From: an uncultured Ignavibacteria bacterium
GTDB taxonomy: Bacteria; Zixibacteria; MSB-5A5; JAABVY01; JAHJOQ01
NCBI GenBank assembly: GCA_964415885.1
Contig: CAYQCE010000006.1
Span: 18,467-82,466 of the forward strand
Length of the DNA stretch: 64,000 nucleotides
Direction: 5' to 3'
Program-made: the position numbers and the translations under genes
Notes under the pieces: generated by a model
The model's database searches: none
What the model was told of the DNA's origin: nothing
Seen by the model: only the letters and a program-made list of their open reading frames with translations
Shown: positions 4,820 through 44,419 of the stretch, in pieces
How the letters are laid out: each line of letters starts with the position of its first letter
Numbering within the stretch: the first letter of the stretch is position 1

Positions 4820-4832
4820 GGTACGACCGGAT

Positions 4833-6377: not shown

Positions 6378-6426
6378 TTGCAATCGAAAGCAACTTGCGC
6401 ATAGAGTTCGAAAGGTTGTGATATAG

Positions 6427-27695: not shown

Positions 27696-29840
27696 TCATT
27701 TGCCCGTCTCGACCTTCTCTACTATGAAACGAGCATCTACGGCGGCGGTATTTTCTGCGTCAGCCGCGATGATAAACGGGTTAACGTCGAATTCCTTGAA
27801 CTCGAGGAAATCCGCAACGAGTTGAGACAGACGCAGGATAGCCTCTATCAGCAGATCGAGATCGACCGGTTCCGATCCACGAAATCCTCGTAGCAACTCG
27901 TATCCGCGCAGGCGCTGAACCATCTCGCGAGCCTCGATATTGGTAACCGGGTTGACCCGGAACACAACATCTTTCATCACCTCGACGTAGATTCCACCGA
28001 GACCGAACATGAGAAGCGGACCAAACGCCGGATCGGTCGACATGCCCATCACGGTTTCGATTCCGCCCCTGACCATCGCCTGTATCGCCACGGAGAACGG
28101 CTCGTCCGAGTCGACTTCCCTTCGCACGTTCTTCTCCATCTCATCCCATGCAGCCCTTATCTCCTTCTCATCGCGGAGATCCACCTTGACCGCGCCGATC
28201 TCGGTCTTGTGCAGAATTCTCGGGGTGCTCACCTTCATCACGACTGGGAACCCCAGCTTTGCGGCAGCCTCGACAGCCGAATCGGGAGAGAATGCATACT
28301 CGTACTGGGCTACGTTGATACCGTAGGCTTCAAGTATCTCAAGTGCCTCGCGGCCGATAATCTCGAACTGCTCTTTCTTGAGGTGCTCGTCGATAATCCT
28401 GCGCACACGCTTACGGGCGACATCGAAGGACGGGAACTTGCCTTCCTCCCTATCGCGGAATTTCCGATATTTCTCTATCTTGACGAGCGTCTTGCTGATT
28501 GACTCAGGAAAAATGTAAGCCGGGATATTGTTCTTTTTCAGGTATTCGAAGCCTTCCGAATACCACGATACACCCATGAAGCAGGCATAGAGCGGTTTGT
28601 CGTATCGGTTCTTCACATCAACAATACTCTCGGCGACCTTCATCTGGTCGACCGTAATTGGCGGGACGAAGATCGAGAGCACCGAGTCGAAACTGTCATC
28701 CTGGATTGCGGCCTCGAGTGCAGCCTTGAATTCAACGTGTGTGGCACCGGCCACCAGATCAAGTGGATTGTGGATCGGCGTGTCGGGCGGCATATGCGGA
28801 CGAATCTTTTTCTTTGTCTCTTCCGTATAGTCCGGCATCTCCATCCCGAGACTGATAAGCGCATCTGTCGCAAGGATTCCCGGTCCACCGGAATTCGTCA
28901 CAATGCTGACTCTATTGCCCTTGGGGACAGGCATTCGAGCCAACGCGGACGCCGTGTCGAAGAGTTCCTCGATCGACGACACACGTATCACGCCGGTCTG
29001 CTCGAACAGTGCGTCGACAGCGACCTCGGTACCGGCGAGTGCGCCCGTATGTGAGGATGCGGCTGCGGCACCTTTGGTCGTGGTGCCGGATTTTACGACC
29101 ACTATCGGCTTCTTCTTCGTTACTTCTCTCGCAATAGAGGTGAAGTGGCGGGGATTGCCGAAATTCTCGAGATACATCAGGATGATATCGATGTCGGGAT
29201 CGTCCTTCCAGTATTCGAGTAGATCGTTAGCCGAGATGTTCGCCTTGTTTCCGATCGATGCGAATTGCGCAAGGCCGAGATTCATATCGGTTGCCTGCGC
29301 CAAAATCGCCTCGCCGAGAGCTCCCGACTGTGAGATAAACCCGATCTTGCCGCGCCTGGGGTAGACCTTCGAGAACGTGGCGTCCATCATGATCTCGGGA
29401 TTCGTGTTGATGATCCCGAAACAGTTCGGACCAATCATCCGCATGCCCCAGTATTCAACCCTCTCAATCAGCTCGAGTTCGAGCTTCAGACCGGTCGGTC
29501 CAACTTCACGGAATCCGGCGGTTATGATCACGAGTCCGCGAACACCCTTCTCCCCGCACTGATCGACTACCGCAGCGACCTTCTCTCGGGGCACGATGAC
29601 GACCGCGAGATCCACGCGATCCGGAACATCCAGAATGCTCGAATATGCCTTTATCGAGTGTATGACGCTATGATTCGGATTTACGGGAAAGATCTTTCCG
29701 TTAAACTCGTACGTGATCAGATTGTGGAGTATTTCTCGACCGATCGAGCCCTTTCTCGGCGTAGCGCCGATAACCGCAATCGATCGCGGACGCATGATAT
29801 AGTCTAATTCCTGTCGACCGGACCGTGATTCCGTTGCCAT
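27696..29840 (-). CDS. acyl-CoA synthetase (ADP-forming), fused alpha/beta (acetate--CoA ligase ACD-type)
   Basis: Start taken at MATESRSG (29840). It has a CoA-binding Rossmann domain (IAVIGATPRKGSIG), a succinyl-CoA-synthetase-like ligase-CoA domain and a C-terminal ATP-grasp domain. Confidence 0.8.
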   Translation of the reverse strand: MATESRSGRQELDYIMRPRSIAVIGATPRKGSIGREILHNLITYEFNGKIFPVNPNHSVIHSIKAYSSILDVPDRVDLAVVIVPREKVAAVVDQCGEKGVRGLVIITAGFREVGPTGLKLELELIERVEYWGMRMIGPNCFGIINTNPEIMMDATFSKVYPRRGKIGFISQSGALGEAILAQATDMNLGLAQFASIGNKANISANDLLEYWKDDPDIDIILMYLENFGNPRHFTSIAREVTKKKPIVVVKSGTTTKGAAAASSHTGALAGTEVAVDALFEQTGVIRVSSIEELFDTASALARMPVPKGNRVSIVTNSGGPGILATDALISLGMEMPDYTEETKKKIRPHMPPDTPIHNPLDLVAGATHVEFKAALEAAIQDDSFDSVLSIFVPPITVDQMKVAESIVDVKNRYDKPLYACFMGVSWYSEGFEYLKKNNIPAYIFPESISKTLVKIEKYRKFRDREEGKFPSFDVARKRVRRIIDEHLKKEQFEIIGREALEILEAYGINVAQYEYAFSPDSAVEAAAKLGFPVVMKVSTPRILHKTEIGAVKVDLRDEKEIRAAWDEMEKNVRREVDSDEPFSVAIQAMVRGGIETVMGMSTDPAFGPLLMFGLGGIYVEVMKDVVFRVNPVTNIEAREMVQRLRGYELLRGFRGSEPVDLDLLIEAILRLSQLVADFLEFKEFDVNPFIIAADAENTAAVDARFIVEKVETGK

Positions 29841-29961
29841 GTGAATCCTCGTTTCCTTTCTGTTGAAAACACAGAACGATATAGCCCATGTTCGCCACAA
29901 GTCAAGCTGTTTTTCATTCACCGGCGGAGATACGCAGATGACTCAGTCTCGCGCACGAAGA

Positions 29962-29992
29962 AAGCGCCGAAGCTCAAGTAGCTCCGGCGCTT
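29962..29992 (-). terminator. candidate terminator after ppdK
   Basis: An 8-bp stem AAGCGCCG/CGGCGCTT with an internal AGCT/AGCT extension lies 32 nt downstream of the ppdK stop. The following T-run is weak. Confidence 0.35.
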
Positions 29993-30023
29993 AACAAACC
30001 AATTTACCAGAATCAACTGTCGG

Positions 30024-32960
30024 CTATTTCTTCTTCTTGCGAGAAGTCTTCTTCGTTGCCTTCTTCGTGGTTTTCTTCCCTGCAGACTTCTTCTTTGCCG
30101 CCGTCTTCTTCGTGCTCTTCTTCTTTGCGGCCTTCTTTGCCGTCTTCTTCGTCGTCTTCTTCTTTGTCGTTTTGCCGGCAGGCTTCTTCGTTGTCTTCTT
30201 AGTCTTGCTCGTCTTCTTCTTCGGCGCACTCTTAGCCCTGGTGGTCGTACCGCCACCCTCTTCGATCACTGCCTGCGCTGCTGCGAGACGGGCGATCGGG
30301 ACCCTGAACGGCGAGCATGAGACATAGTCGAGACCGGCGCGATGGCAGAACTTGACCGATGCCGGATCACCGCCGTGCTCACCACAGATACCGATCTTCA
30401 ACTCTTCCTTGGTGGCACGTCCCTTGTCGACACCCATTTCCACGAGCTGTCCCACACCGGTCTGATCGAGAGAGACAAACGGGTCCTTCGGCAGGATGCC
30501 CTTGTCCACATAATACTTGAGGAATCGACCGGCATCATCGCGCGAAAAACCCATCGCCATCTGAGTCAGGTCATTGGTTCCGAAAGAGAAGAACTCAGCG
30601 ACTTCAGCGATCTCATCCGCAGTCAGTGCGGCACGCGGTATCTCGATCATAGTGCCGACCTTGTACTCAATTTCGGTGTTATATTGACGCATCACCTCTT
30701 CGGCAACACGCACAACAACCTCGCGCTGATTCGCGAGCTCATTGACATGACCGACAAGCGGGATCATAATCTCCGGATAGACCTTCTTACCGGCCTTCTT
30801 CAGCTCACAAGCCGCCGTGATGATCGCACGGGTTTGCATCTCGGTTATCTCAGGATAAGTGATTCCGAGACGGCACCCTCTGTGTCCGAGCATCGGATTA
30901 AGCTCGTGAAGCTCCTCGAGGCGTCTTCGGATAACTCTCTGCTTCTCTATCTTCTTCTCATCAGCGCCCTTCTCCTCGAGCTCGCGGATCTTGGCGTCGA
31001 CCTCCTCCATCCTCGGGAGGAACTCATGAAGCGGCGGATCGAGAGTACGGATTGTAACCGGCAGGTCCTCCATCGCGGAAAGAATGCCCTTGAAATCGGC
31101 TTTCTGGAACGGCAGAAGCTTATCGAGCGCCGCCTGCCTGTCGGCCTGCGACTCGGAGATAATCATCTGCTGTACGATCGGCAAACGATCCTCTGCGAAG
31201 AACATATGCTCAGTCCTGCAGAGACCGATACCCTCGGCACCGAACGCCCTCGCGGTAGTCGAATCGTCAGGTGTATCAGCGTTGGTTCGAACTCCGAGCT
31301 TGCGGTATCCATCAGCCCATTCCATGAACTCGCCGAATTCGCCCGAGAGCTCTGGATCGATCGTCTCGACTTCGCCCTTCATAACCTCACCGGTCGAACC
31401 GTTGAGCGTGATGACATCGTTCTCCTTGAATACCTGCGTTCCAACCGCAAACTGGCGCTTGGCCTCGTAGACTCTGATATCCTCGCATCCGGCGACACAG
31501 CACTTGCCCATGCCCCGCGCTACAACAGCGGCGTGCGAGGTCATCCCGCCGCGGGCGGTCAATATACCCGCCGCTGCGGCCATACCGTGAATGTCGTCAG
31601 GATTGGTCTCGGTTCGCACGAGGATTACCTTCTCACCGGTTTCTGCGCGTTCGACCGCCTGATCAGCGGTGAACACAACCTTGCCCGATGCGGCTCCCGG
31701 TGATGCCGCGAGACCCCTGGCAATCACGTCATAATGGGCATCCGGGCTAATCCGGGGATGCAGCAACTGATCGAGGTCCTCGGGACGGACCCGCATCAGA
31801 GCTTCATCGACCGAAATCAGATCCTCTTTGACCATATCGACGGCGATCTTCACAGCCGCCGGAGTTGTCCGCTTGCCGGAACGAGTCTGGAGCATGTAGA
31901 GGATGCCCTCTTCGATAGTGAACTCGAAATCCTGGACATCTCTATAATGAAGCTCGAGCTTATCGGTGATATCGCGGAGTTCCTTGAACACCGCCGGCAT
32001 ATCCCTCTGCAGCTCGATAATCGGCTTCGGCGTGCGAATACCCGCGACAACGTCTTCACCCTGCGCATTGATCAGATATTCACCGTAGAATTCTCTGTCA
32101 CCGGTAGCGGGGTTCCGTGTGAATCCGACGCCCGTTCCGGAGGTGTCACCGAGATTGCCGAATACCATCAACTGAACATTGACACCGGTCCCGGTTTCCT
32201 CGGTAAGATCGTTGAGCTTGCGATATGTTATTGCGCGTGGATTATTCCATGAGCGAAAGACCGCGTCACGAGACATCTTCAACTGACGATTCGGGTCTTC
32301 CGGGAAGTCCTCGCCGGTCTTGTCCTTGATTATCTTCTTGAACTTGTCTGCAACATCCTTGAGATCATCCGCGGAAAGAGAGGAATCGTGACGGACCTGG
32401 CGCTGCTTTTTCTTCTTTTCCATTACATCATCGAAAATCTCTTTATCGATTCCGAGCACAACATCACCGAACATCTGTATAAACCGGCGGTAAATGTCAT
32501 AGGCAAACCGCTCGTTGCCTGTCTTCTCGATCATTCCCTGCAACGTCTCGGAGTTAAGGCCGAGATTCAGCACCGTATCCATCATACCCGGCATAGAAAT
32601 CGGGCCGCCGGACCTGACCGACACGAGAAGTGGATCTTCCTTGCCGCCAAATTTCCTTCCGGTAAGCTTCTCAAGCCTGGCGATTGCCTTGTCGATTTCC
32701 TCTTCGAGCCCGGGAGGGGAACTCATGTTGTTCTCGTAGAAGAGCTTGCATGCTTCGCAGGTGATAGTGAATCCGGGAGGAACCGGGATACCCGCGTTGG
32801 TCATCTCAGCGAGTCCGGCTCCCTTTCCCCCCAGAAGTTCTTTCATCGACCCGTTGCCTTCGGCCTTACCTCCGCCGAAGAAGTACACCATTTTGGGTTT
32901 CTTTTTGCGAGTGCTCTTTTTTGAAGTCCTTTTGGTGGCTCCAGCCGTCTTCCTTGCCAT
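30024..32960 (-). CDS. ppdK: pyruvate, phosphate dikinase with lysine-rich N- and C-terminal extensions
   Basis: The ATG encoding MARKTAG lies 9 nt after AGGAGA. The PPDK core runs from MVYFFGGGKAEG (canonical PPDK N-terminus) through the GGMTSHAAVVARG phospho-His region to the PEP-utilising TIM barrel. In frame before it is a 23-aa basic leader (MARKTAGATKRTSKKSTRKKKPK). In frame after ...AAAQAVIEEGGG is an ~80-aa tail of K/T/A repeats (KKKTSKTKKTTKKPAGKTTKKKTTKK...). Confidence 0.85.
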   Translation of the reverse strand: MARKTAGATKRTSKKSTRKKKPKMVYFFGGGKAEGNGSMKELLGGKGAGLAEMTNAGIPVPPGFTITCEACKLFYENNMSSPPGLEEEIDKAIARLEKLTGRKFGGKEDPLLVSVRSGGPISMPGMMDTVLNLGLNSETLQGMIEKTGNERFAYDIYRRFIQMFGDVVLGIDKEIFDDVMEKKKKQRQVRHDSSLSADDLKDVADKFKKIIKDKTGEDFPEDPNRQLKMSRDAVFRSWNNPRAITYRKLNDLTEETGTGVNVQLMVFGNLGDTSGTGVGFTRNPATGDREFYGEYLINAQGEDVVAGIRTPKPIIELQRDMPAVFKELRDITDKLELHYRDVQDFEFTIEEGILYMLQTRSGKRTTPAAVKIAVDMVKEDLISVDEALMRVRPEDLDQLLHPRISPDAHYDVIARGLAASPGAASGKVVFTADQAVERAETGEKVILVRTETNPDDIHGMAAAAGILTARGGMTSHAAVVARGMGKCCVAGCEDIRVYEAKRQFAVGTQVFKENDVITLNGSTGEVMKGEVETIDPELSGEFGEFMEWADGYRKLGVRTNADTPDDSTTARAFGAEGIGLCRTEHMFFAEDRLPIVQQMIISESQADRQAALDKLLPFQKADFKGILSAMEDLPVTIRTLDPPLHEFLPRMEEVDAKIRELEEKGADEKKIEKQRVIRRRLEELHELNPMLGHRGCRLGITYPEITEMQTRAIITAACELKKAGKKVYPEIMIPLVGHVNELANQREVVVRVAEEVMRQYNTEIEYKVGTMIEIPRAALTADEIAEVAEFFSFGTNDLTQMAMGFSRDDAGRFLKYYVDKGILPKDPFVSLDQTGVGQLVEMGVDKGRATKEELKIGICGEHGGDPASVKFCHRAGLDYVSCSPFRVPIARLAAAQAVIEEGGGTTTRAKSAPKKKTSKTKKTTKKPAGKTTKKKTTKKTAKKAAKKKSTKKTAAKKKSAGKKTTKKATKKTSRKKKK

Positions 32961-33175
32961 ACTGTATAGTCTCCTCATGATATGTAGAATTTCCACCGTA
33001 AATCATAGACTCAATTTGGCACAATTCTACGTAAGTTGAATTCCTCACGCAAGATGTTTCTTGACATAATTGAGCCATAACACCGAGGCGGGCGATTCTG
33101 TTTCAGAAAAGACTAGAACTGTAGGACCCGGTATCAGATTTTCGCTCCGACACGGCGAGCCACGAGCCGCTTCAT

Positions 33176-33493
33176 CTACATGGTGAAGTATCGCTCGCCC
33201 GAGATAATCTTCTCGAGCATCTTGAGGGTCTTCTCCACCGGAGCATGCATGAGATCGTGAGTGTTTAGCGTGCCCTTGGCCTTCTCACGCCGATACTCAA
33301 CCCCATTTGCGCCCTTCAGCCGCTGCTTCTTTTTGTGAGTGAGATTATACAATCTCTGATACTCTCTTGCTTTTTCGCGATGTGCCAGATAATACTTTCT
33401 CTGGTACTCAGCGCGCGCGGCCTTAATTTCCTCAGGAGTCATGTCCTTTTTGCTCTTGCGGCGCTTGGGTTTAGAGATTTGGATCTTTCCCAT
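33176..33493 (-). CDS. small basic hypothetical protein
   Basis: 105 aa, Lys/Arg-rich and helical, with no family recognised. Confidence 0.4.
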   Translation of the reverse strand: MGKIQISKPKRRKSKKDMTPEEIKAARAEYQRKYYLAHREKAREYQRLYNLTHKKKQRLKGANGVEYRREKAKGTLNTHDLMHAPVEKTLKMLEKIISGERYFTM

Positions 33494-33796: not shown

Positions 33797-34435
33797 TCAG
33801 GAGAAATAACTCACCACCATGTAGTACCAAGACTCGATAAATGCTATCCTCTGTACGAAAAGTGAAACTCGAGCCATTACCGTATATCCGAAACTCGATC
33901 CGAATCCGAGCATAAGGATCCAGATTCCGAATTTCGCCGCGCCTCCGAATGCTCCCTTGTGTTCCTTCGAAAAGAAGAAGTACATGAGCCCCGTGAGTAC
34001 ACCGATCACTATAACTATATTCCAAAACTCTGTCAAGGAGGCAAAGCCAAGATTGAGGTCCAAAGTTGCAGAAAGCTGTCTGTTCACACTGTTGTACATG
34101 TAAAGCGGTATTGCAACACCGGACGTGCCAATATAGAATGCGATCGGATAGCGTGATAGCCACGCCAGTTTCTTCGAAAACCTGAACCACATCATTGCGC
34201 CGAGGAGTCCCGGAATGAGGTACCACCATTCACCGGCGATCACCGGATCGAACAGCTTCGGCTTGAGACTGTTCAGTACCAGGAGGACGGCGAAATAGCC
34301 TGCTCCGACACCGACAACCAGATGCTCTGCAAATTTGTAAAACGGGTTGTCCTTATACAGAAAGCTGAACGTCGCGATTGTCAAAAGCACCGCGAGTGTC
34401 GTCCATAAGAGTTCTACAGTCGGGCCATCTTCCAT
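33797..34435 (-). CDS. module copy 3, protein D: 6-TM membrane protein (uncharacterised family)
   Basis: 212 aa. It shares FLYKDNPxYKFxE, FFFSKEHKGAFGGAAK and FGxSFGYTVMARxSL motifs with 37215..37958 and 40814..41503. Confidence 0.7.
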   Translation of the reverse strand: MEDGPTVELLWTTLAVLLTIATFSFLYKDNPFYKFAEHLVVGVGAGYFAVLLVLNSLKPKLFDPVIAGEWWYLIPGLLGAMMWFRFSKKLAWLSRYPIAFYIGTSGVAIPLYMYNSVNRQLSATLDLNLGFASLTEFWNIVIVIGVLTGLMYFFFSKEHKGAFGGAAKFGIWILMLGFGSSFGYTVMARVSLFVQRIAFIESWYYMVVSYFS

Positions 34436-34450
34436 TTACCTCACCTCCTC

Positions 34451-35302
34451 CTACAGCTTAATTTTCTTCTTACGATCGGACATAAGATATCCGATGTTTC
34501 CAATTAGGATGAACAGCACGATGGTCAGATGCGCGACGACCTGTGCAGGCATACCCTGGTTGGCGTCCGCTTCCTGTCCGACAAGCTGTTCATACTCTGC
34601 AGCACCCACCCAGCCTCCAATAAGGCCGAAGAGTGCGTTGCCGAGATATGGATAGTAGTCGGTGGCCATAACTCCGGTCACCCCGAGAGCGAGAGGCATA
34701 TCGTATCTCGCGTTGCCGTAGATGATCCACATATCGGATGTCGTACCTGATGTTATCGTTACGACCCCCTTAAGGTCATCGTAGTTTCGCACCCTATGCA
34801 TGATCGGGAGCTCATCGAGAGGAGTGTCGTAATAGTCTCTCGGGAAAAACACGCGGAAGTTCTCGCCCATTCCGAGGATCACAAATGCCGGGTATGGACG
34901 ATACCCGAGGAAGCAGTAATCCTCGCCATAGACGACCTCTCGGCCATATATCTCCGCTGCATCCTCCGAGACCTCCCGTGTCACCTGCTCTACCATACCT
35001 GCGCCGTACTGCGAAAGAGTGACGGTGACTACCTTAACACCTTTTCGGAAACAGTGCAGCATGATAGCGCGTGACATGGGATGCAGCTCAGCGAGAGAAC
35101 TGGGGTCGTAATCGAACGACATCAGTATCTTCTCTCCAGGCTCCGCATTCTCGATAAAGTTGTATATAGACTTGACCTCATCGGTGGTTACCACTCCCAC
35201 GGTAAACACGCTTCTCAGGAAGTACGCCATTGACACAACGACGAACAGGAAGAGAAAGACCCAGCGCCTGTCAAGTTCTACCATTCTTTCAAATATATTC
35301 AT
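34451..35302 (-). CDS. module copy 3, protein C: bitopic protein with N- and C-terminal TM helices and ~220-aa periplasmic domain
   Basis: 283 aa, paralogous to 37955..38857 and 41505..42368. Shared segments include SFDYDPS..EL.PM..A and GLLGG..GAAEYE. Confidence 0.7.
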   Translation of the reverse strand: MNIFERMVELDRRWVFLFLFVVVSMAYFLRSVFTVGVVTTDEVKSIYNFIENAEPGEKILMSFDYDPSSLAELHPMSRAIMLHCFRKGVKVVTVTLSQYGAGMVEQVTREVSEDAAEIYGREVVYGEDYCFLGYRPYPAFVILGMGENFRVFFPRDYYDTPLDELPIMHRVRNYDDLKGVVTITSGTTSDMWIIYGNARYDMPLALGVTGVMATDYYPYLGNALFGLIGGWVGAAEYEQLVGQEADANQGMPAQVVAHLTIVLFILIGNIGYLMSDRKKKIKL

Positions 35303-35314
35303 ACCGGCATCCTC

Positions 35315-35938
35315 CTAATCTCTACCGAGGTAAGCCCGTTCAATGCCGAGCATGATTTTGAGTGCAGTTGCGACCGCTCCGAGACCGATTCCGATAATGA
35401 TCGCGCGCTTGGCGGCCAGATTCGGGACCTTAAGAATCCATGTAGCGAGATTAGCAACCGGTTCCGAGATGAATCCCATCGGAACGAATCTGATCATTAT
35501 AACCAGGCCCGCAATAAGGAGCAAAGTCGCCAGAACCGATCTGGCCCGGAATGCCCTGAATGCGGCAGAGGCTATAAAGAAAGCGAGCAATGAGAACATT
35601 GTTGCCTGGATCGGAACCAGAATATGGAAGAAAAAGTGCTCGTACACATAGTTGTTCAGATTTCCACCGCCGGGGAAAAAGCCAAAGATCAGCATCACGA
35701 AAAGTCCGACGAGTGTAACAACTGCGAATCCCCAGTTCTCCGATCTACGGCTGATTTTCCCCCAGTTTACCCGAAGAAGTGACCAAATTCCGAGCAACAG
35801 GGCGAACACGCCGATAACAATTGTCCAGTCGATCAGGTACTGGTACATCCAGGCCCAACTGTCGAGCGGGACGAAATACTGGACGACCATGAACACACTG
35901 ACCATGAACACCATTATCAAGGGAATCCGTTGTTTCAT
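35315..35938 (-). CDS. module copy 3, protein B: 6-TM membrane protein (uncharacterised family)
   Basis: 207 aa. It shares SAxFRAFRARxV.ATLLLIAG, NLAxxRAIxIGIxLG and LGIERxYLG motifs with 38866..39549 and 42368..43021. Confidence 0.7.
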   Translation of the reverse strand: MKQRIPLIMVFMVSVFMVVQYFVPLDSWAWMYQYLIDWTIVIGVFALLLGIWSLLRVNWGKISRRSENWGFAVVTLVGLFVMLIFGFFPGGGNLNNYVYEHFFFHILVPIQATMFSLLAFFIASAAFRAFRARSVLATLLLIAGLVIMIRFVPMGFISEPVANLATWILKVPNLAAKRAIIIGIGLGAVATALKIMLGIERAYLGRD

Positions 35939-35950
35939 AACATATCCTCC

Positions 35951-37189
35951 TTACAGATTCACCCTGACAATTTCGCGGAAGCCCTCCCAGCCGAGTGCGA
36001 CTGCGACAACTCCCACCGCCAACAATACCATCACTATCGCCTTGCCCCAGTCCTCGGCTTTGAGCGACCCGAGAAGCAACGGGTCTCTTCCGAGATACGC
36101 CGAGGCGGCATAGAGTTCTTCGCCGATCAGCGTGTAGTCGCATGCCACGACGAAGAACGGAATTTGCGTAACCTGATCGGTACCGGCAATCTGAATTGCA
36201 CCGATTGCGTTACCCGTCTCCGCGAGAATCAGGGATTCTGCAGCGAAGTAACCCAGGTAGAAGTTCGTAGCCGGGAGATCACGAACCATGATACCGTTCA
36301 CACCCGCGACATACGCGAACTGCGCGTTTGTCACGAAGTAGACCTGATCGTCGGAATACTGATCAGGACGACCGGCTTCGAGATATGACGACTTTACGAC
36401 ATCCTGCGCGACCGACATAACGATCGGGTCGTAGCACGGCACGATCAGGTCTGTCTGATATTCCGCGACCTTCTTTGCGACCCTGCCGAGAATAGTAAAC
36501 GACGCGATCGTCGCAATCTCGGCGGCGGTTCCAATTCCGAGAACATACAGTATGGGCTTCCCCATCTCCGTAGCTCTGCCGATAGCCTCATCCACAGCCT
36601 CGATTCCCGCAAGCGGTCTGACAAACAGATCCTTGCCCTTCTTGGCTACCTGGATGAAGTATATCGTGAACGCCGTGAAGAGAAGTACAGCGACAAGTAC
36701 CGGGACCTTGCCAGTGTGGAACCACTGGCCTTTTGCCTGGAAAGGCCCACCGATTTCCGACTCGGTTGTCTGACCTTCCTCGCCTATAGCCACCACCTTG
36801 TAGTAGTAATCCTTGTCGTTGGCCAGGTAATCTTCATTTGCCGGATCGCTGTCCCCGATATCGAAGTACTCGAAGAAAGTCGACGGGGACCGACCTCGCA
36901 ACTTGAACTCACCGTCCGGAGACTCTGCCCGATAGACCTTGAAGTGATCGATCATATCGACGGCCTCCTCCGGATACTCCCATATGACAGTGAGCTTGTG
37001 CCCGTTGTCGTTGGGATGATCCTTGCCGGAGACAATCACCGGTTTTGGTGGAGGTTCTGTCTCTGCCGGTTGCATGAGCGTATCAGCACCCTCTTCTGCC
37101 GGTTCATCCTGCGCCATTACTGCGGCAGGAATCATCAACAGAAGGAGCAGTGCTGAAAGGAAACACGGAAATATGTACTTCATACGCAA
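35951..37189 (-). CDS. module copy 3, protein A: signal peptide + FN3-like periplasmic domain + TM + conserved cytoplasmic domain + C-terminal TM
   Basis: 412 aa, paralogous to 39556..40812 and 43025..44266. The cytoplasmic core IQIAGT....Q.PFFV.ACDYTLIGEELYAASAYL is nearly invariant. The periplasmic part has a Y.YRV/YYYKVVA FN3-like signature. Confidence 0.7.
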   Translation of the reverse strand: MRMKYIFPCFLSALLLLLMIPAAVMAQDEPAEEGADTLMQPAETEPPPKPVIVSGKDHPNDNGHKLTVIWEYPEEAVDMIDHFKVYRAESPDGEFKLRGRSPSTFFEYFDIGDSDPANEDYLANDKDYYYKVVAIGEEGQTTESEIGGPFQAKGQWFHTGKVPVLVAVLLFTAFTIYFIQVAKKGKDLFVRPLAGIEAVDEAIGRATEMGKPILYVLGIGTAAEIATIASFTILGRVAKKVAEYQTDLIVPCYDPIVMSVAQDVVKSSYLEAGRPDQYSDDQVYFVTNAQFAYVAGVNGIMVRDLPATNFYLGYFAAESLILAETGNAIGAIQIAGTDQVTQIPFFVVACDYTLIGEELYAASAYLGRDPLLLGSLKAEDWGKAIVMVLLAVGVVAVALGWEGFREIVRVNL

Positions 37190-37214
37190 CCTCGATGGAT
37201 TTGTAGTGAACTTA

Positions 37215-37958
37215 TTATCCGATCATACCGAGCCAGTCGCCGAACAGGTACTGCATTCGTCCGACGAGCAGAGATATACGCGCCATAACCGTATATCCGA
37301 ATGACGCGCCGAAAGTTATCATCAGCACGATGATACCCATCCTGGCTCCTGCACCAAACGCTCCCTTGTGCTCCTTGGAAAAGAAAAAATAGATGAGCCC
37401 ACAGAAAACGCCAATGAATATAACGATGTTCGATAGCGTCTGGCCGAAGTCGAAACCGGCGGCAGACGATATATATAACGAAAAAGTCGTGTTGTTTATC
37501 TGTTGTATAAAATCGGATCTCAGGTACCGCACAAGATTCAGACCTGCAGTGGTTCCGACAATAAATGCCAGCGCCCATCGGGATATCCAGCCCGCATTCG
37601 GCGCGAGCCTCATCAGAAGAAGGATGCCGAGAATGAGCGGGATAATCATGAGCGGTTCCGCGGGATTATCCTTAAGCGCCGGAAGCACCCCACCGACCAT
37701 CGGAGGATAGAGTTTGCCGAAGAGATTTGGCACCATCGTGCCCCAGAATCCCATGCACATCCAGTAGGCGGCACTCACCCCAACGAACAGATGTTCCGCG
37801 AACTTGTAGTACGCGTTATCCTTGTAGAGGAAAGAGAAAATGAACAGCGTCAGAAACGCACCTACCGTTACCAGCGGACCTTTGAGCGCCACGCTGACCG
37901 CGAAAGCGATTATGACAATACCTAACAGAATCCAGGATGCCAGCTTGCTACCGTTCAA
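37215..37958 (-). CDS. module copy 2, protein D: 6-TM membrane protein
   Basis: 247 aa, a paralog of the other D proteins (FLYKDNAYYKFAE, FFFSKEHKGAFGAGAR, FGASFGYTVMARISLLVGR). Confidence 0.7.
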   Translation of the reverse strand: MNGSKLASWILLGIVIIAFAVSVALKGPLVTVGAFLTLFIFSFLYKDNAYYKFAEHLFVGVSAAYWMCMGFWGTMVPNLFGKLYPPMVGGVLPALKDNPAEPLMIIPLILGILLLMRLAPNAGWISRWALAFIVGTTAGLNLVRYLRSDFIQQINNTTFSLYISSAAGFDFGQTLSNIVIFIGVFCGLIYFFFSKEHKGAFGAGARMGIIVLMITFGASFGYTVMARISLLVGRMQYLFGDWLGMIG

Positions 37959-38857
37959 AGCCGCCCTCCTTCGATTCCGTCTGTCTTGTGTTTCCTCCGA
38001 TGTAAGAAGTAGAGCACATTGCCGAATATTATGAAGAAGATTATGACCATGTGCGAAACTGTCTGGGATACCATCAGGCTCATCCCGGCCATCCAGCGAT
38101 CCTTGTACTTCGGATACTGAGTAATGAGCGCATTCTCGTATTCAGCGGCTCCTTTCGCTCCACCGAGAAGGCCGATCAACTGATTCGGATAGTACGGATA
38201 CAGAAGCGGCGCGGAGACCGCGGTACATCCACCTCCAACCGGAACATCACCCGGATCACCCGCATAGAGCACCCATTCCTTGATACCAGGGAATCCGCCA
38301 CCGAATGAGACGATCAAATCGAAATTCCTTACGTTGTTGATATTCTTCATCATCGGAATGGAGTCGATTGCGGTACCTTTGGCATCGGTGGAGTACATTC
38401 GCTTGAAATCGACCAAGAGCAGCCGAATAAGCCCCTGATTACCAGCTTTGTAGCCGAGGTTCACATAGTCCTCGCCGTACTCATAACCGGGAAACTCCGG
38501 ACGCAGTATGGTTTCTATTGTCTCGCCGGTAATGTTATGACCTGTCGCCCAGACAGCCATCATATACAGCCTGCAGTTTCGCTCTGCCAAGTGCCGCACC
38601 AAGGCGTCTGCCATTGGTTGAATCTCGGGAGCGGTTGTCGGGCCGTAATCGAAGGACAGGAGCACTCTCGAGTCTTCCGGCAGATTCTCGACGTAGTCAA
38701 AGAAAGCCTGCACGATCGGAGTGGTCTCCTCTTTCATCGTTGCACCGACCAGCAGCGGTATTACGACGGCAAATGCGATGAAGACGAAGATAATCCGCCT
38801 GTCGATAAATTGAAGTCTCTCGACCATACTCTGTTTATTTGTTTCGTTCGCCGCCAT
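37955..38857 (-). CDS. module copy 2, protein C: bitopic periplasmic-domain protein
   Basis: 300 aa, a paralog of the other C proteins. It overlaps the D gene by 4 nt. Confidence 0.7.
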   Translation of the reverse strand: MAANETNKQSMVERLQFIDRRIIFVFIAFAVVIPLLVGATMKEETTPIVQAFFDYVENLPEDSRVLLSFDYGPTTAPEIQPMADALVRHLAERNCRLYMMAVWATGHNITGETIETILRPEFPGYEYGEDYVNLGYKAGNQGLIRLLLVDFKRMYSTDAKGTAIDSIPMMKNINNVRNFDLIVSFGGGFPGIKEWVLYAGDPGDVPVGGGCTAVSAPLLYPYYPNQLIGLLGGAKGAAEYENALITQYPKYKDRWMAGMSLMVSQTVSHMVIIFFIIFGNVLYFLHRRKHKTDGIEGGRL

Positions 38858-38865
38858 ATATCAAC

Positions 38866-39549
38866 CTAATCCGTATCCTGTCCGAGATATGTTCGCTCGA
38901 CGCCGAGGATAACTCGCAACGACATCGAAATAACCCCCAGTGCAATGCCGATCATAATTGCTCTCTGCCCGGCAAGGTTCGGCACGTCCATTATCCAGTT
39001 TGCCATTGTCGGTATCTGGAGGAACGACCAGCCACCTGTCAGATCCTGAGTAAGCCAGAGTCCGAACGGGGTCCGTCCGAGCAGGATTATAAACGCCGCT
39101 ATTAGCAGAATCGTGGCCTCGATGTTCTTGGCGCGAAATGCGCGATATGATGCCGATCCGACGAAGAACGCCAGGAGTGCGAACATAGAAGCCTGAAGCG
39201 GCGTAAAGATGTACAAATATAGATCGTTGAAGAGTGAGCCGAAAGCCGCAACGTCGCCCTGAATCCCATCCGGATTGTTAATCTTGAATATTCCAGCCGC
39301 AAGCATTACGAGAAATCCTCCGAGCGTCACCAGCGAAAACGGCCAGTCTTCCTTCTTCCGGTTGACTTTTGTCAGGTGCACGCGAACGAGATTGCCGCCG
39401 CCCAGGAGGAACGCAAAGACCGCGATGATATCGAAATAGAGCGAGAAATCATCCCCGAGGTTGCCGAACGGCTTGTGCGGGATGAAATCCGCGAGAACCA
39501 GAACGGTTCCAACGATGAATGTTATTGCAAGCGGTACGGTTCGTTTCAT
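38866..39549 (-). CDS. module copy 2, protein B: 6-TM membrane protein
   Basis: 227 aa, a paralog of the other B proteins. Confidence 0.7.
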   Translation of the reverse strand: MKRTVPLAITFIVGTVLVLADFIPHKPFGNLGDDFSLYFDIIAVFAFLLGGGNLVRVHLTKVNRKKEDWPFSLVTLGGFLVMLAAGIFKINNPDGIQGDVAAFGSLFNDLYLYIFTPLQASMFALLAFFVGSASYRAFRAKNIEATILLIAAFIILLGRTPFGLWLTQDLTGGWSFLQIPTMANWIMDVPNLAGQRAIMIGIALGVISMSLRVILGVERTYLGQDTD

Positions 39550-39555
39550 TTCAGA

Positions 39556-40812
39556 CTAACTCGCTGAGAATATCGATCTAAATGTTTTAGCCAGCGACAG
39601 CAGGCTTTCAGAATTGGCTATTGTCGCAACCGTGAAAAGCCCGCATCCTATTATAATGGCGGCCATCGCTATCATCTTACCAACATCCTGCCCCTTGAGA
39701 GACCCGAGCTGTTTCGGTTCGCCTGAGAGATATGCCGATGCCGCAAATAGCTCCTCACCGATTAGAGTATAGTCGCACGCGGCAACAAAGAACGGAAGCT
39801 GCGCGGGCATTGCTGTGCCGGCGATCTGTATTGCCCCGATCGAGTTACCGGTCTCCGCCATAATCAGTGACTCCGCGAAAAACGCACCCAGATAGAAACA
39901 TGTAGCGGGCTTCTCACGGACCATGATACCGTCGACTGCGGCGACATACCCGAACTGCTCGTCGGTCAGGTAATGAACCATGTCGTCAGAGTAAGCCTCC
40001 GGTCTGCCCGCAGCGACATACGCCTGCTTGACAGTCTCACGCGCGGTGGTCATAACGATCGATCGCGAGACCGGCATGTTGAGCTTTGTATCATAATTTG
40101 CTATTGTCCTTGCAATTCTGCCGAGGATTGTTATTCCAGCAACCGTCTGGACATCATCCATATCGAGAATGCCGGGAATGAAAAGAATGGGACGTCCCAT
40201 CTCGGTCGCACGTCCAATCGCTTCGTCAACCGCCTCGAGACCCGCGATCTTTCGCAGATAGAGCTTCTTGCCTTTTTGGGCAGCGAAGATGAAGAATATG
40301 ACCGAGACAGAGATTATCAGGCCAATGATGAATGTGTCGAGGTCTTTGATGCTGAACCACTGCGCGGATGATGTAACAGGGCGTGAAATCGACGATCTCG
40401 AGGATTCCCCGTCCGCAAAAGTTTCGACGTAGTAATAGTATTCCTCGCCATCGGTCGTGGTCGCATCCTCGAATTCGGTCAGTCCCCTCGAGGCTGAACC
40501 GATGACCTCGAACGGTCCGGTCGGGCTTTGGCTGCGGTAAATGACGTACGAAGTCACATTATCATCGCCTGCGCCGTCATCGGGTGACAATGTCCACGAA
40601 ACATGAATCGAACTACCCGCATCGCCCGGATTGTCCTGCACGACATCGATCCTGGCCGGCTCGGGCGGATCGGCGGGCATGGCTTCCTCGACCGCCATCG
40701 CGGTATCCACCATCGTAGTATCAGGAGTGTCTTCCTCCTGCGCGAGCACCGAAACATGCGCAAAGGCAAAAAACGCGAGTATCGCGAGTATTTTGATACC
40801 CAGACTCTTCAT
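39556..40812 (-). CDS. module copy 2, protein A: FN3/TM/cytoplasmic-domain protein
   Basis: 418 aa with signal peptide MKSLGIKILAILAFFAFAHVSVLA. It is a paralog of the other A proteins. Confidence 0.7.
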   Translation of the reverse strand: MKSLGIKILAILAFFAFAHVSVLAQEEDTPDTTMVDTAMAVEEAMPADPPEPARIDVVQDNPGDAGSSIHVSWTLSPDDGAGDDNVTSYVIYRSQSPTGPFEVIGSASRGLTEFEDATTTDGEEYYYYVETFADGESSRSSISRPVTSSAQWFSIKDLDTFIIGLIISVSVIFFIFAAQKGKKLYLRKIAGLEAVDEAIGRATEMGRPILFIPGILDMDDVQTVAGITILGRIARTIANYDTKLNMPVSRSIVMTTARETVKQAYVAAGRPEAYSDDMVHYLTDEQFGYVAAVDGIMVREKPATCFYLGAFFAESLIMAETGNSIGAIQIAGTAMPAQLPFFVAACDYTLIGEELFAASAYLSGEPKQLGSLKGQDVGKMIAMAAIIIGCGLFTVATIANSESLLSLAKTFRSIFSAS

Positions 40813-40813
40813 A

Positions 40814-41503
40814 TCAACTGAATGTCCCTATAAACCATGTGTTGACCAGAAAATCGAGCCTTCCGATCAGAAGCGACATACGGCTCATCACAGTGTATCC
40901 GAATGACGCCCCGAATGTTATCATCAGGAACCATGTACCCACCTTGGCTGCTCCGCCGAAGAAACCCCGGTGCTCCTTCGAGAAAAAGAAGTACACGAGA
41001 CCGGTAAATGTCCCCACCAGTATAAGGGCATTTCCGAATCCATGCCAGAAATCTCTTACCGGTTCCACACCTCCGGCGTCGGAAATCGGCCCGAATATCG
41101 GAACGATCGTGTTGTATATCTGGACCACGCCGTTGGATACGAGATAGTTGATGAACTGTAGTCCTGCGGTCGCGCCGACAACCAGCGCAAGCGGCCATCT
41201 CGAAATCCAACCTATCGGCGGCACGAGCCGCATGAGCATCATCAGGCCGAAGATGCCGGCGATCACGTAGAGCAGTCCGTCGGTGATCTCGCCGCGCGCG
41301 AAGAGCGCCTCGAGTGCGGGCCAGAGATTGTCCCAGAGCTTCGATACCAGATTCTGCCAGAAGAGCGACACAAACCAGTAGCCGGCCGAGAGGCCGACGA
41401 AAATAGCCTCGGAGATCTTATACCATGGATTGTCCTTGTACAGGAAAGACATGATCCCGAGCGTAAGAAATGCGGCTATCCAGACTCCGATATCGAAAGT
41501 CAT
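40814..41503 (-). CDS. module copy 1, protein D: 6-TM membrane protein
   Basis: Start taken at MTFDIGVW (41503), 1 nt after the stop of the C gene. The longer track ORF runs back into the C gene. Confidence 0.65.
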   Translation of the reverse strand: MTFDIGVWIAAFLTLGIMSFLYKDNPWYKISEAIFVGLSAGYWFVSLFWQNLVSKLWDNLWPALEALFARGEITDGLLYVIAGIFGLMMLMRLVPPIGWISRWPLALVVGATAGLQFINYLVSNGVVQIYNTIVPIFGPISDAGGVEPVRDFWHGFGNALILVGTFTGLVYFFFSKEHRGFFGGAAKVGTWFLMITFGASFGYTVMSRMSLLIGRLDFLVNTWFIGTFS

Positions 41504-41504
41504 A

Positions 41505-43021: not shown

Positions 43022-43024
43022 AAC

Positions 43025-44266: not shown

Positions 44267-44289
44267 AATTGTGCTGACTACTAAAGAAA

Positions 44290-44320
44290 AGAGACCGTCA
44301 ATAAAGAGCGGACGGTCTCT
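44290..44320 (-). terminator. intrinsic-terminator-like hairpin in the leader of the 12-gene operon (candidate attenuator)
   Basis: A perfect 10-bp stem AGAGACCGTC/GACGGTCTCT with an 11-nt loop is followed on the - strand by TTTTCTTT. The hairpin ends 15 nt before the ATG of the first operon gene. Confidence 0.5.
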
Positions 44321-44419
44321 GGTCAAAATCTATCAAAAGGCTAAGTATGCGAGTTCTTCTGTCGAAACAATCACGTGCAAGCCTTCTTAGCTGGATAATG
44401 TCGATTTCCAAGTTCACCT

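What the first reader, a model, noticed from the sequence alone, without database searches (positions are those of the whole stretch)
29962..32996. Pyruvate phosphate dikinase carrying histone-H1-like lysine-rich tails at both termini
The PPDK core is canonical (MVYFFGGGKAEG ... catalytic His region ... PEP-utilising domain). It is preceded in frame by the 23-aa basic leader MARKTAGATKRTSKKSTRKKKPK. It is followed in frame, after ...AAAQAVIEEGGG, by an ~80-aa tail of (K)n-T/A repeats (KKKTSKTKKTTKKPAGKTTKKKTTKKTAKKAAKKK...). At the DNA level this is the cttctt-rich low-complexity stretch at 30027-30260. Such tails resemble bacterial histone-H1-like domains (Hc1, AlgP-type KPAA repeats) that bind nucleic acids or polyanions. 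Fusion to a central metabolic enzyme is unusual. It could mediate nucleoid, polyphosphate or membrane association, or it could be an assembly frameshift artefact that merged two genes.
Basis: seen in the sequence. Interest (0 to 1): 0.6.

Follow-up and report, generated by a model that had tools for sequence, protein, structure and literature searches.

The report
PPDK enzyme with lysine-rich disordered tails
A normal central-metabolism enzyme (pyruvate phosphate dikinase) of an uncultured Zixibacteria-like bacterium really does carry strongly positive, histone-H1-like floppy tails at both ends; the tails are kept across the whole lineage, so they are not an assembly error, and they probably stick the enzyme to negatively charged cell material such as DNA or RNA.

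Summary
One uninterrupted gene (30024-32960, minus strand) encodes a complete PPDK core between a 23-residue basic leader (net +11) and a 76-residue K/T/A tail (35 Lys, no Asp/Glu, net +37). The gene has a Shine-Dalgarno site, a conserved ATG and a hairpin terminator.

The artefact reading is refuted. All 120 best homologues, from many independent assemblies and mostly Zixibacteria, carry such tails. Indels against close relatives are in frame. Non-synonymous change in the tails stays well below synonymous change, which is saturated.

The tail behaves as a charge module rather than a domain:
- Relatives have either a short N tail with a long C tail, or the reverse. A rough tree needs at least 7 switches between the two.
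- N and C lengths are anticorrelated (rho -0.59), and tail charge offsets core charge (rho -0.41).
- AlphaFold2 predicts both tails disordered, and they have no Pfam match.

The trait is specific to PPDK. No other gene in the window has it, and almost none do in 2.5 Mb flanking other PPDK genes. Shorter basic termini recur in 39 of 142 PPDK loci from other phyla.

The best mechanism, inferred and not shown, is an electrostatic tether to cellular polyanions: nucleic acids first, polyphosphate second. I found no published description. It is a new variant of known kinds.

The parts
30024..32960 (-). Complete PPDK gene: 978 codons plus a TAG stop at 30024-30026.
   Evidence: ORF. Three PPDK Pfam domains in order. 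Aligns to solved C. symbiosum PPDK 1KBL, query 33-899 to chain 8-870 of 873, E = 0. An identical 978-aa protein is on record from an NCBI contig (P0001).
32892..32960 (-). N-terminal basic leader, residues 1-23 (MARKTAGATKRTSKKSTRKKKPK), net charge +11.
   Evidence: Sequence. The ATG is conserved in L081 and L082. pN is 0.09 against a saturated pS of 0.75 versus L081. AF2 gives pLDDT below 50 for residues 1-18. A basic N leader is present in nearly all 120 homologues.
30255..32891 (-). Catalytic core, residues 24-902, net charge -30. It comprises the nucleotide-binding domain, the His476 swivel domain and the PEP/pyruvate TIM-barrel domain with Cys859.
   Evidence: AF2 pLDDT is mostly 90 or higher.
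30027..30254 (-). C-terminal lysine-rich tail, residues 903-978 (76 aa: 35 K, 18 T, 10 A, 5 S, 4 G, 2 R, 2 P, no D/E), net charge +37.
   Evidence: Degenerate period-12/15/30 DNA repeats. In-frame indels against L081 and L082. pN 0.26 against pS 0.77. AF2 pLDDT 31-35 with no secondary structure. No Pfam match.
32971..32976 (-). Shine-Dalgarno-like GAGGAG, 10 nt upstream of the ATG at 32960.
   Evidence: Read. The GGAGA core is conserved in L081 and L082. No comparable site precedes the internal Met24 (aaagaaacccaaaATG).
29962..29992 (-). Intrinsic-terminator-like hairpin with a 13-bp stem, followed by UUUCUUCG. It begins 31 nt after the stop codon.
   Evidence: RNA fold gives -28.2 kcal/mol, z = -2.3. 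The stem is kept in L081 through a two-sided change, GCGCCGGAGC/GCTTCGGCGC to GCGTCGGAGC/GCTTCGACGC. The consensus scan did not list it.
27696..29840 (-). Downstream neighbour on the same strand: ADP-forming acetyl-CoA synthetase-type enzyme (CoA_binding, Succ_CoA_lig, Ligase_CoA_2, ATP-grasp_5). It has no basic tail. Metabolic context only.
   Evidence: Pfam. The same neighbour occurs in L081 and L082. Termini.

Best explanation
The gene encodes a catalytically standard pyruvate phosphate dikinase. Lineage-specific, intrinsically disordered polycationic tails have been added to its two ends and maintained by selection: +11 at the N terminus and +37 at the C terminus, on a core of -30.

Selection acts on total positive charge. 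It does not act on sequence, motif or position. The tail therefore works as a generic electrostatic anchor like the C-terminal domain of histone H1.

I think the most likely role is to hold this large, probably abundant enzyme on cellular polyanions. The first candidate is nucleic acids, meaning the nucleoid and the ribosome- and RNA-rich cytoplasm. Those are the places where PPi and AMP, the two substrates PPDK converts to ATP in the glycolytic direction, are released by polymerases and aminoacyl-tRNA synthetases.

Shown:
- The tails are real, in frame and conserved.
- They are predicted disordered.
- They are specific to PPDK among its neighbours.
- Their position is interchangeable between the two termini.
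- Their charge offsets the charge of the core.

Inferred:
- Polyanion binding in vivo.
- The identity of the polyanion.
- The idea of local AMP and PPi recycling.
For: Real and translated:
- One ORF with a Shine-Dalgarno site, an ATG and a terminator.
- The ATG and Shine-Dalgarno site are conserved, indels are multiples of 3, and the terminator stem shows a compensatory change in independent assemblies.
- pN is 0.09 (N tail) and 0.26 (C tail) against pS of about 0.75.

Lineage-wide:
- All 120 best homologues (65-100% identity; the named ones are Zixibacteria/GN15) carry K/A/T/S-rich tails.
- Pooled tail composition is K 33%, A 16%, T 12%, S 8%, P 6%, R 4%, D+E 4.5%.
- The apparent exceptions are contig-end fragments or start-trimmed NCBI models: 894 aa against 961-982 aa in the same 90% cluster.

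Charge module, not a domain:
- 55 homologues have a long N and short C tail; 42 have a short N and long C tail.
- Spearman correlation of N length against C length is -0.59, and var(N+C) is 558 against 1507 for the summed variances.
- The core NJ tree needs at least 7 N-to-C switches.
- Core charge against tail charge gives rho -0.41, and the whole protein stays net positive, median +19.
- High-GC lineages use R/P/A-rich basic tails instead.

Disordered: AF2 pLDDT is 31-35 in the tails against 90 or more in the core, and the tails have no Pfam hit.

PPDK-specific:
- No other gene among about 55 crude gene calls in the window has such a tail.
- The sampled window proteome is ordinary, with median net charge -4.
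- 2.5 Mb flanking 160 PPDK loci holds only a few other K-rich proteins: ribosomal proteins, an unannotated ORF with a K-rich N terminus (L021) and one small Zixibacteria protein.

Recurrent: 39 of 142 PPDK loci from other phyla have a terminus of +8 or more.

Prior knowledge:
- K-rich low-complexity regions in prokaryotes mark DNA- and RNA-binding proteins (PMC6821194).
- Surface-modified fluorescent proteins show charge-dependent mobility in E. coli cytoplasm, attributed to interactions with ribosomes (PMC5726854, PMC5726849).
- H1-like tails of AlgP and PhaF bind DNA and position granules (PMC9239181).
Against: - No binding or localisation data exist for any of these proteins, and no cultured Zixibacteria is available.
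- Sequence alone cannot tell DNA, RNA, polyphosphate or acidic lipids apart.
- PPDK is not known to need a nucleic-acid partner.
- I could not check whether other glycolytic or PPi-using enzymes of the same genome carry tails. Only 64 kb of this genome and PPDK flanks elsewhere were readable.
- The correlations are not corrected for phylogeny, and the tree is a rough NJ tree.
- The gene context (ADP-forming acetyl-CoA synthetase, acetyl-CoA hydrolase/transferase) says nothing about nucleic acids.
Confidence: 0.5

Rival explanations
1. Polyphosphate association. The tails bind polyP granules or chains, as the H1-like tail of AlgP does, placing a PPi-using enzyme at the cell's phosphate and energy store.
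For: - AlgP has a C-terminal domain of H1-like composition, localises to polyP granules and needs that domain to space them (PMC9239181).
- Lysine-rich regions are described as polyP binders in the abstracts listed.
- The tail has no acidic residues and a very high K density.
- PPDK handles PPi.
Against: - PPDK uses PPi, not polyP.
- No ppk, ppx or other polyP gene lies next to PPDK in the window or in L081, L082 or L001.
- The tail lacks KPAA-type repeats.
- Nothing separates polyP from nucleic acids at the sequence level.
Confidence: 0.15
2. Intramolecular or physico-chemical role. The tails offset an acidic core to tune net charge, solubility or oligomer state, or they concentrate the multivalent anionic substrates (PPi, PEP, AMP/ATP) near the active sites. 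No macromolecular partner is involved.
For: - Tail charge rises as the core becomes more acidic (rho -0.41), and the net charge of the whole protein stays in a band of +5 to +34.
- Position does not matter.
- This protein has the most acidic core (-30) with one of the largest tails (+48).
Against: - Tail-less PPDKs with cores of similar or greater negative charge are the rule elsewhere: median -22 among 41 representatives that could be split.
- The net charge overshoots neutrality by a wide margin.
- A strongly positive net charge is expected to cost mobility in cytoplasm (PMC5726854), so it needs a benefit.
Confidence: 0.15
3. Membrane association. The polycationic tails bind anionic phospholipids and hold PPDK at the inner face of the membrane, for example near a membrane pyrophosphatase or transporters.
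For: - Polybasic tails can bind acidic membranes. One plasmid-partition protein's C-terminal region binds both membranes and DNA (PMC7762940 title).
- The gene lies next to a large block of membrane-protein genes.
Against: - The tails have almost no hydrophobic or aromatic residues (F+W+Y+L+I under 5%).
- AF2 predicts no helix, so there is no amphipathic helix.
- The membrane-gene neighbourhood is not kept in other Zixibacteria such as L001.
Confidence: 0.07
4. Non-adaptive by-product. AAG-rich repeats expanded by replication slippage from the A-rich codons that follow the start (MAKK...) or precede the stop, and the tails are tolerated junk.
For: - Degenerate period-12/15/30 repeats in the tail DNA.
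- Rapid length turnover and in-frame indels.
- Many tail-less PPDKs already begin MAKK or MKK. This is a plausible seed for how the tails arose.
Against: - Retention in all 120 homologues despite saturated synonymous divergence.
- pN well below pS.
- Near-exclusion of D/E.
- N/C length compensation and core-charge compensation.
- Specificity to PPDK among about 2,000 neighbouring genes.
Confidence: 0.07
5. Artefact or mis-annotation. Either a frameshift or missing stop fused a small H1-like gene to PPDK, or the N leader is untranslated and the true start is Met24.
For: - Low-complexity repeats are error-prone in assemblies.
- NCBI models of some relatives start at the core Met.
Against: - The same in-frame architecture appears in more than 100 independent assemblies from NCBI, JGI, ENA and Logan.
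- Indels are multiples of 3.
- A terminator directly follows the tail.
- The Shine-Dalgarno site and ATG are conserved upstream of the leader, and there is no Shine-Dalgarno site before Met24.
- The upstream frame in relatives stays K-rich and free of stops for 60-130 codons.
Confidence: 0.02

Closest known systems
Canonical bacterial PPDK (Clostridium symbiosum, PDB 1KBL/1DIK; EC 2.7.9.1)
   Same: - Full-length collinear alignment, query 33-899 to chain 8-870 of 873.
- The same three Pfam domains.
- Catalytic His in GGMTSH and Cys in GICGEHGG.
- A confident AF2 core.
   Different: The solved PPDKs closest to this one end within a few residues of the core (873-876 aa; one is 913 aa). This protein has 23 extra basic residues at the N terminus and 76 at the C terminus, which turn a -30 core into a +18 protein.
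C-terminal domain of eukaryotic linker histone H1
   Same: Lysine-rich (about 40%), with alanine, serine/threonine and proline, almost no acidic or hydrophobic residues, and intrinsically disordered. The H1 composition is from my own knowledge and from the comparison made in PMC9239181.
   Different: - No winged-helix globular domain and no linker_histone Pfam hit.
- Threonine-rich T-K-K units instead of S/TPKK and A/P-rich units.
- Attached to an enzyme, and placed at either terminus.
AlgP and PhaF of Pseudomonas (H1-like KPAA-repeat C-terminal domains)
   Same: These are bacterial disordered polylysine tails of H1-like composition. They bind DNA and position polyP or PHA granules relative to the nucleoid (PMC9239181). 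That is a precedent for a tail that tethers a metabolic structure to a polyanion.
   Different: - There are no KPAA repeats here.
- AlgP and PhaF are dedicated structural or regulatory proteins, not central metabolic enzymes.
- Their tails are C-terminal only. One non-Zixibacteria PPDK representative, P0123, does have an AKKPA-type C tail.
Lysine-repeat tails of actinobacterial DNA enzymes (Ku with PAKKA repeats; Streptomyces topoisomerase I)
   Same: These are enzymes or DNA-end binders carrying terminal K-rich low-complexity tails that modulate DNA binding non-specifically (PMC3553676; the topoisomerase I work is cited in PMC6821194).
   Different: Those proteins already act on DNA, so the tail strengthens an existing function. 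PPDK has no known nucleic-acid substrate. The PAKKA motif is absent.
PhaM of Ralstonia eutropha
   Same: It attaches a metabolic assembly, PHB granules, to the nucleoid (PMC3556143, title and abstract). This is the nearest functional analogy to tethering metabolism to DNA.
   Different: It is a separate adaptor protein, not a fusion to the enzyme. The paper I could read does not describe its basic motif, so the tail resemblance rests on my memory only.

Membership tests
Pyruvate, phosphate dikinase (EC 2.7.9.1) | Three domains in order: PPDK_N (nucleotide-binding), PEP-utilizers (phospho-His swivel), PEP-utilizers_C (PEP/pyruvate TIM barrel). | tested here: met
   Pfam E-values are 2.4e-50, 3.5e-25 and 2.1e-85, all above the curated cut-offs.
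Pyruvate, phosphate dikinase (EC 2.7.9.1) | Catalytic histidine in the G-G-x-T-S-H motif, and the catalytic cysteine of the PEP domain. | tested here: met
   GGMTSHAAVVARG at 471-483 (His476) and GICGEHGG at 857-864 (Cys859). Both positions are invariant in the 42-sequence alignment.
Pyruvate, phosphate dikinase (EC 2.7.9.1) | End-to-end similarity to PPDKs with solved structures. | tested here: met
   1KBL, 1DIK, 1VBG and 5JVL all match at E = 0 over essentially their whole length.
Pyruvate, phosphate dikinase (EC 2.7.9.1) | Reversible ATP + Pi + pyruvate = AMP + PPi + PEP activity. | not testable with these tools
   Needs an enzyme assay.
Linker histone H1/H5 | Winged-helix globular domain (Pfam linker_histone). 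| tested here: not met
   No Pfam family other than the three PPDK domains at E <= 0.01. AF2 finds no folded element in the tails.
Linker histone H1/H5 | A K/A/P/S/T-rich disordered C-terminal domain. This is a compositional resemblance only and does not define membership. | tested here: met
   The C tail is 46% K, 24% T, 13% A, 7% S and 3% P with no D/E, and pLDDT is 31-35.
AlgP/PhaF-type H1-like tails | Tandem KPAA (KPVA, KTAAA) repeats. | tested here: not met
   The tail sequence has no KPAA. The dominant unit is T-K-K, seven times. TRF finds only degenerate period-12/15/30 repeats.
Actinobacterial PAKKA-repeat tails (Ku, HupB, TopA) | PAKKA or AAKK(P) repeat units. | tested here: not met
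   No PAKKA in either tail. There is one AKKA.
Chlamydial Hc1/Hc2 histone-like proteins | Similarity to the Hc1 family profile. | tested here: not met
   No such Pfam hit. A tail-only sequence search gave no significant match of any kind. That search is weak evidence, because composition filters suppress such queries.
Nucleic-acid or polyanion-binding disordered tail (functional class) | Demonstrated binding to DNA, RNA or polyP. | not testable with these tools
   Needs EMSA, co-sedimentation or localisation experiments.

The most novel reading that the evidence does not exclude
In Zixibacteria, PPDK would double as an abundant chromatin- or ribosome-associated protein. Its H1-like tails would park a 200-kDa-class ATP-regenerating enzyme on nucleic acids, so that AMP and PPi released by polymerases and aminoacyl-tRNA synthetases are turned back into ATP on the spot.

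This would be a spatially organised energy-recycling device, built by adding a position-free charge module to a housekeeping enzyme. It would have been evolved repeatedly, because shorter versions occur in Acidobacteriota, Planctomycetota, FCPU426 and Altiarchaeota.
Probability: 0.15. Interest if true: 0.75.

Novelty: new variant of a known kind. Interest (0 to 1): 0.5.

Why it matters
Most bacterial cytoplasmic proteins are kept negatively charged, and strongly positive ones are expected to stick to ribosomes and nucleic acids. Here a central energy-metabolism enzyme has been made strongly positive on purpose. It has been kept that way across a whole candidate phylum, with the charge moving freely between the two ends of the protein.

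That is a clean natural example of selection on the bulk property of a disordered region rather than on its sequence. It points to spatial organisation of core metabolism in bacteria that cannot yet be grown.

It also has a practical side. Homology-guided start-site calling trims the N-terminal versions of these tails in public records (894 aa against about 980 aa), so the feature is partly invisible in databases.

Shorter versions occur in PPDK loci labelled Vicinamibacterales, Tepidisphaerales and Phycisphaerae. Those groups have cultured members, to my knowledge, which would make the idea testable if their PPDKs carry the tails.

Tried and rejected
1. A tail-only protein search (74 aa) found 3,329 word-sharing candidates but none at E <= 0.001. 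Composition filters make this uninformative, so I could not list other protein families that share the tail.
2. The exact look-up of the window's own protein gave no record, so I did not obtain the source record name. The Zixibacteria assignment rests on named homologues at 68-75% identity and on tree placement.
They were useful for showing recurrence elsewhere. They gave only four loci with long Zixibacteria-type tails, three of them labelled Zixiibacteriota, so a Zixibacteria-wide census of tailed proteins could not be made.
4. The consensus terminator scan did not list the hairpin after the stop codon. Folding showed it.
6. dN/dS could not be computed properly because synonymous sites are saturated even against the 92%-identical relative. 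I report pN against pS instead.
7. The PhaM paper I opened does not mention a lysine-rich or PAKKA motif, so I do not cite it for that.
8. Considered and rejected: a plant-type transit peptide or a PTS1-type targeting signal (wrong composition, bacterial context); a Sec or Tat signal (no hydrophobic core); a separate gene on the opposite strand of the tail (the 96-aa F-rich ORF at 30037-30327 is the complement of the AAG repeats); the R-rich 112-aa ORF at 29918-30256 (a frame-shifted reading of the same repeats).


Full report
**What is in the sequence**

The minus strand carries one uninterrupted ORF, 30024..32996. Its product contains the three Pfam domains of pyruvate phosphate dikinase in the usual order: PPDK_N, PEP-utilizers and PEP-utilizers_C. 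All three score far above their cut-offs, and nothing else matches.

The protein aligns end to end with solved PPDKs. Residues 33-899 match residues 8-870 of the 873-residue Clostridium symbiosum enzyme at E = 0. The catalytic His476 (GGMTSHAAVVARG) and Cys859 (GICGEHGG) are in place.

- N terminus: the 23-residue leader MARKTAGATKRTSKKSTRKKKPK.
- C terminus: 76 residues after ...AAAQAVIEEG. This tail has 35 Lys, 18 Thr, 10 Ala, 5 Ser, 4 Gly, 2 Arg, 2 Pro and no Asp or Glu.
- Charges: +11 for the leader, +37 for the C tail and -30 for the core.

**Gene boundaries**

- A GAGGAG lies 10 nt upstream of the ATG at 32960. No such site precedes the internal Met24.
- That ATG and the GGAG are conserved in the two closest relatives, although the surrounding non-coding DNA differs.
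- The TAG stop at 30024-30026 is followed, 31 nt downstream, by a 13-bp hairpin and a U-rich run.
- The hairpin is kept in the 92%-identical relative through a two-sided change in the stem.

So the gene is 30024-32960.

**Not an artefact**

The 120 best database homologues have 65-100% identity in the best local alignment and come from NCBI, JGI, ENA and Logan assemblies. Those that carry names are candidate division Zixibacteria / Zixiibacteriota / GN15. Nearly all are 920-1050 residues long, against about 875 for ordinary PPDKs.

I split each homologue at conserved core motifs. Every one has lysine-rich extensions. The few apparent exceptions are contig-end fragments, or NCBI models whose start was placed at the core methionine. 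In one 90% cluster the NCBI records are 894 residues and the other members are 961-982.

Two close relatives, L081 and L082, were recovered with their flanks.
- They show the same gene order: a small basic ORF, PPDK, then an ADP-forming acetyl-CoA synthetase-type gene. Further downstream both have a Band 7 gene, and L081 also has the acetyl-CoA hydrolase/transferase gene seen in the window.
- Their tails differ from ours only by substitutions and by indels that are multiples of three.
- Synonymous sites are saturated even against the closest relative (pS about 0.7-0.77).
- Non-synonymous differences are 0.05 in the core, 0.09 in the N leader and 0.26 in the C tail.

The tails therefore evolve faster than the core but are clearly constrained as coding sequence.

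**What kind of thing the tail is**

Pooled over 119 homologues, the tails are K 33%, A 16%, T 12%, S 8%, P 6%, G 4%, V 4% and R 4%. D+E together are 4.5%, and aromatic residues are almost absent. AlphaFold2, run with a 42-sequence alignment, gives a confident core. Residues 1-18 and 907-978 have pLDDT 31-35 and no secondary structure. The tail DNA holds only degenerate period-12/15/30 repeats.

The most informative result is that position does not matter.
- 55 homologues have a long N tail (50-130 residues) with a short C end. 42 have our arrangement, a short N leader with a 40-92-residue C tail.
- N and C lengths are anticorrelated (Spearman -0.59). The variance of their sum (558) is far below the sum of their variances (1507).
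- On a neighbour-joining tree of the cores the two arrangements interleave. Parsimony needs at least seven switches.
- Tail charge rises as the core becomes more acidic (rho -0.41), and the whole protein stays net positive, median +19.
- In PPDK loci labelled as Acidobacteriota and Planctomycetota lineages, many of the basic tails are richer in Arg, Pro and Ala than in Lys.

These patterns fit selection on total positive charge of a disordered appendage, not on a motif or a fold. They are not corrected for phylogeny, and the tree is rough.

**Specific to PPDK**

- Among about 55 crude gene calls in the window, only PPDK has such a tail.
- The sampled proteome is ordinary, with median net charge -4 and median pI about 6.
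- In 1.43 Mb plus 1.07 Mb flanking 160 other PPDK genes, the same scan finds only a few real K-rich, acid-poor proteins. They are archaeal ribosomal proteins, an unannotated ORF with a K-rich N terminus, and a 161-175-residue Zixibacteria protein with a K-rich linker. That last gene sits directly downstream of PPDK in three loci.

**Recurrence elsewhere**

Among the 150 best 50%-identity representatives of PPDK, almost all lack tails. Three have clearly basic ones, including one with an 88-residue AKKPA-type C tail.

Among 142 PPDK loci at 53-68% identity from genomes and metagenomes, 39 have a terminus with net charge of +8 or more. By record title these include FCPU426, Vicinamibacterales and other Acidobacteriota, Tepidisphaerales, Phycisphaerae (a 52-residue C tail), a Spirochaetia bin and an Altiarchaeota bin. 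Most others begin with only MAKK or MKK.

Zixibacteria therefore carry the extreme, fixed form of a tendency that recurs in this branch of PPDKs.

**Mechanism**

What is shown is a real, conserved, disordered, PPDK-specific polycation of +20 to +50 per subunit whose position is free. What follows is inference.
- Surface-modified fluorescent proteins show charge-dependent mobility in E. coli cytoplasm. The authors and the accompanying commentary attribute this to electrostatic interactions with ribosomes (PMC5726854, PMC5726849).
- The H1-like tails of AlgP and PhaF bind DNA and position polyphosphate or PHA granules (PMC9239181).

I therefore think the tails most likely tether PPDK to cellular polyanions, nucleic acids first. 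A tempting rationale is that PPDK running towards pyruvate consumes exactly AMP and PPi, the by-products of aminoacyl-tRNA synthetases and, for PPi, of polymerases. This rationale is my own inference from the textbook reaction. The neighbouring ADP-forming acetyl-CoA synthetase-type gene fits a fermentative, ATP-yielding use of the enzyme in this organism, but that linkage is not kept in other Zixibacteria.

The rivals are polyP binding, charge or solubility tuning or substrate attraction without a partner, membrane binding, and non-adaptive slippage. They are listed separately with their evidence. None is excluded except the artefact reading.

**Comparison with known systems**

As an enzyme this is a member of the PPDK family; all testable defining features are met.

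The tails work like the C-terminal domain of histone H1 and like bacterial H1-like tails, but they belong to none of those families.
- There is no linker-histone globular domain and no Hc1-type profile match.
- There are no KPAA repeats (AlgP/PhaF), no PAKKA repeats (Ku, HupB, TopA) and no S/TPKK motif. The recurring unit is T-K-K.

What differs from all precedents I could find is the carrier, a central metabolic enzyme with no nucleic-acid substrate, and the free exchange of the tail between termini.

The literature searches found no prior description. Combining PPDK with lysine-rich returned only unrelated papers. Combining Zixibacteria with the enzyme name returned nothing. The survey of prokaryotic low-complexity regions does not mention dikinases or glycolysis. 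The library searched is incomplete, so absence of a prior description is not proven.

**Verdict**

This is a new variant of known kinds.

I score interest at 0.5. It is a clear and apparently undescribed evolutionary pattern with a testable cell-biological implication, but the core enzyme is ordinary and the mechanism is inferred.

Noticed in passing
window 33797-44326 (-): Three tandem paralogous cassettes of predicted membrane-protein genes. The first of the three ~410-430-aa lead genes (35951-37189) hits DUF6754, PF20539; the other two window genes were not scanned. Each is followed by two or three smaller genes of about 210-300 aa. The same layout lies upstream of PPDK in L081 and L082, where the corresponding lead genes do carry PF20539. 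No function is known.
   Followed up: partly
window 33176-33493 (-): A 105-aa very basic ORF (net +17, pI 10.2, no Pfam hit) directly upstream of PPDK. A 105-aa gene at the same position in L081, and in L082 a clearly homologous ORF (88 aa as called). It may be a small nucleic-acid-binding protein.
   Followed up: partly
L001 12930-13445, L002 12975-13457, L003 12862-13362 (+): In three loci with long-N-tail PPDKs (L001 and L002 are labelled Zixiibacteriota; L003 is labelled Ignavibacteria), the gene directly downstream of PPDK encodes a 161-175-aa protein with a central lysine-rich linker (KKAVKKKAKKKVAKKKVVKKK...) between two conserved segments. It is a second H1-like element next to PPDK, with no counterpart in this window.
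   Followed up: no
Protein cluster of P0009: NCBI records of Zixibacteria PPDKs with long N tails are annotated at 894 aa, starting at the core methionine. Other members of the same 90% cluster are 961-982 aa. Homology-guided start calling hides the N-terminal tails in public databases.
   Followed up: partly
N tails of P0025, P0026, P0040, P0045, P0048, P0055, P0064, P0065, P0068, P0072 and others: One Zixibacteria subclade has a conserved R-x-I-G-V-x-x-K segment, followed by a mildly acidic, proline-containing stretch, between the lysine-rich part of the N tail and the core. This may be a short linear motif or an added strand. It is absent from the window's protein.
   Followed up: no
window 8924-14104 (-) and 14576-15802 (-): A 1726-aa, extremely acidic protein (net charge -194, pI 4.05) with a signal-peptide-like N terminus. 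The next large gene, about 470 bp away, is a bacterial serpin (PF00079, E = 8e-106).
   Followed up: no
window 57629-60934 (-): A tricorn-like protease (PD40, Tricorn_C1, PDZ_Tricorn, Peptidase_S41) with an internal mixed-charge K/D-rich insert, WKKKEEKSKKKDGKDGDDKDKKDDDDDDDK. It was the only other K-dense stretch found in the window.
   Followed up: no
window 3482-8660 (+): A redox gene cluster: a CCG/4Fe-4S protein, a multihaem class III cytochrome c, a 4Fe-4S dicluster protein and an NrfD-type membrane subunit. This suggests a respiratory or sulfur/metal-reducing module.
   Followed up: no
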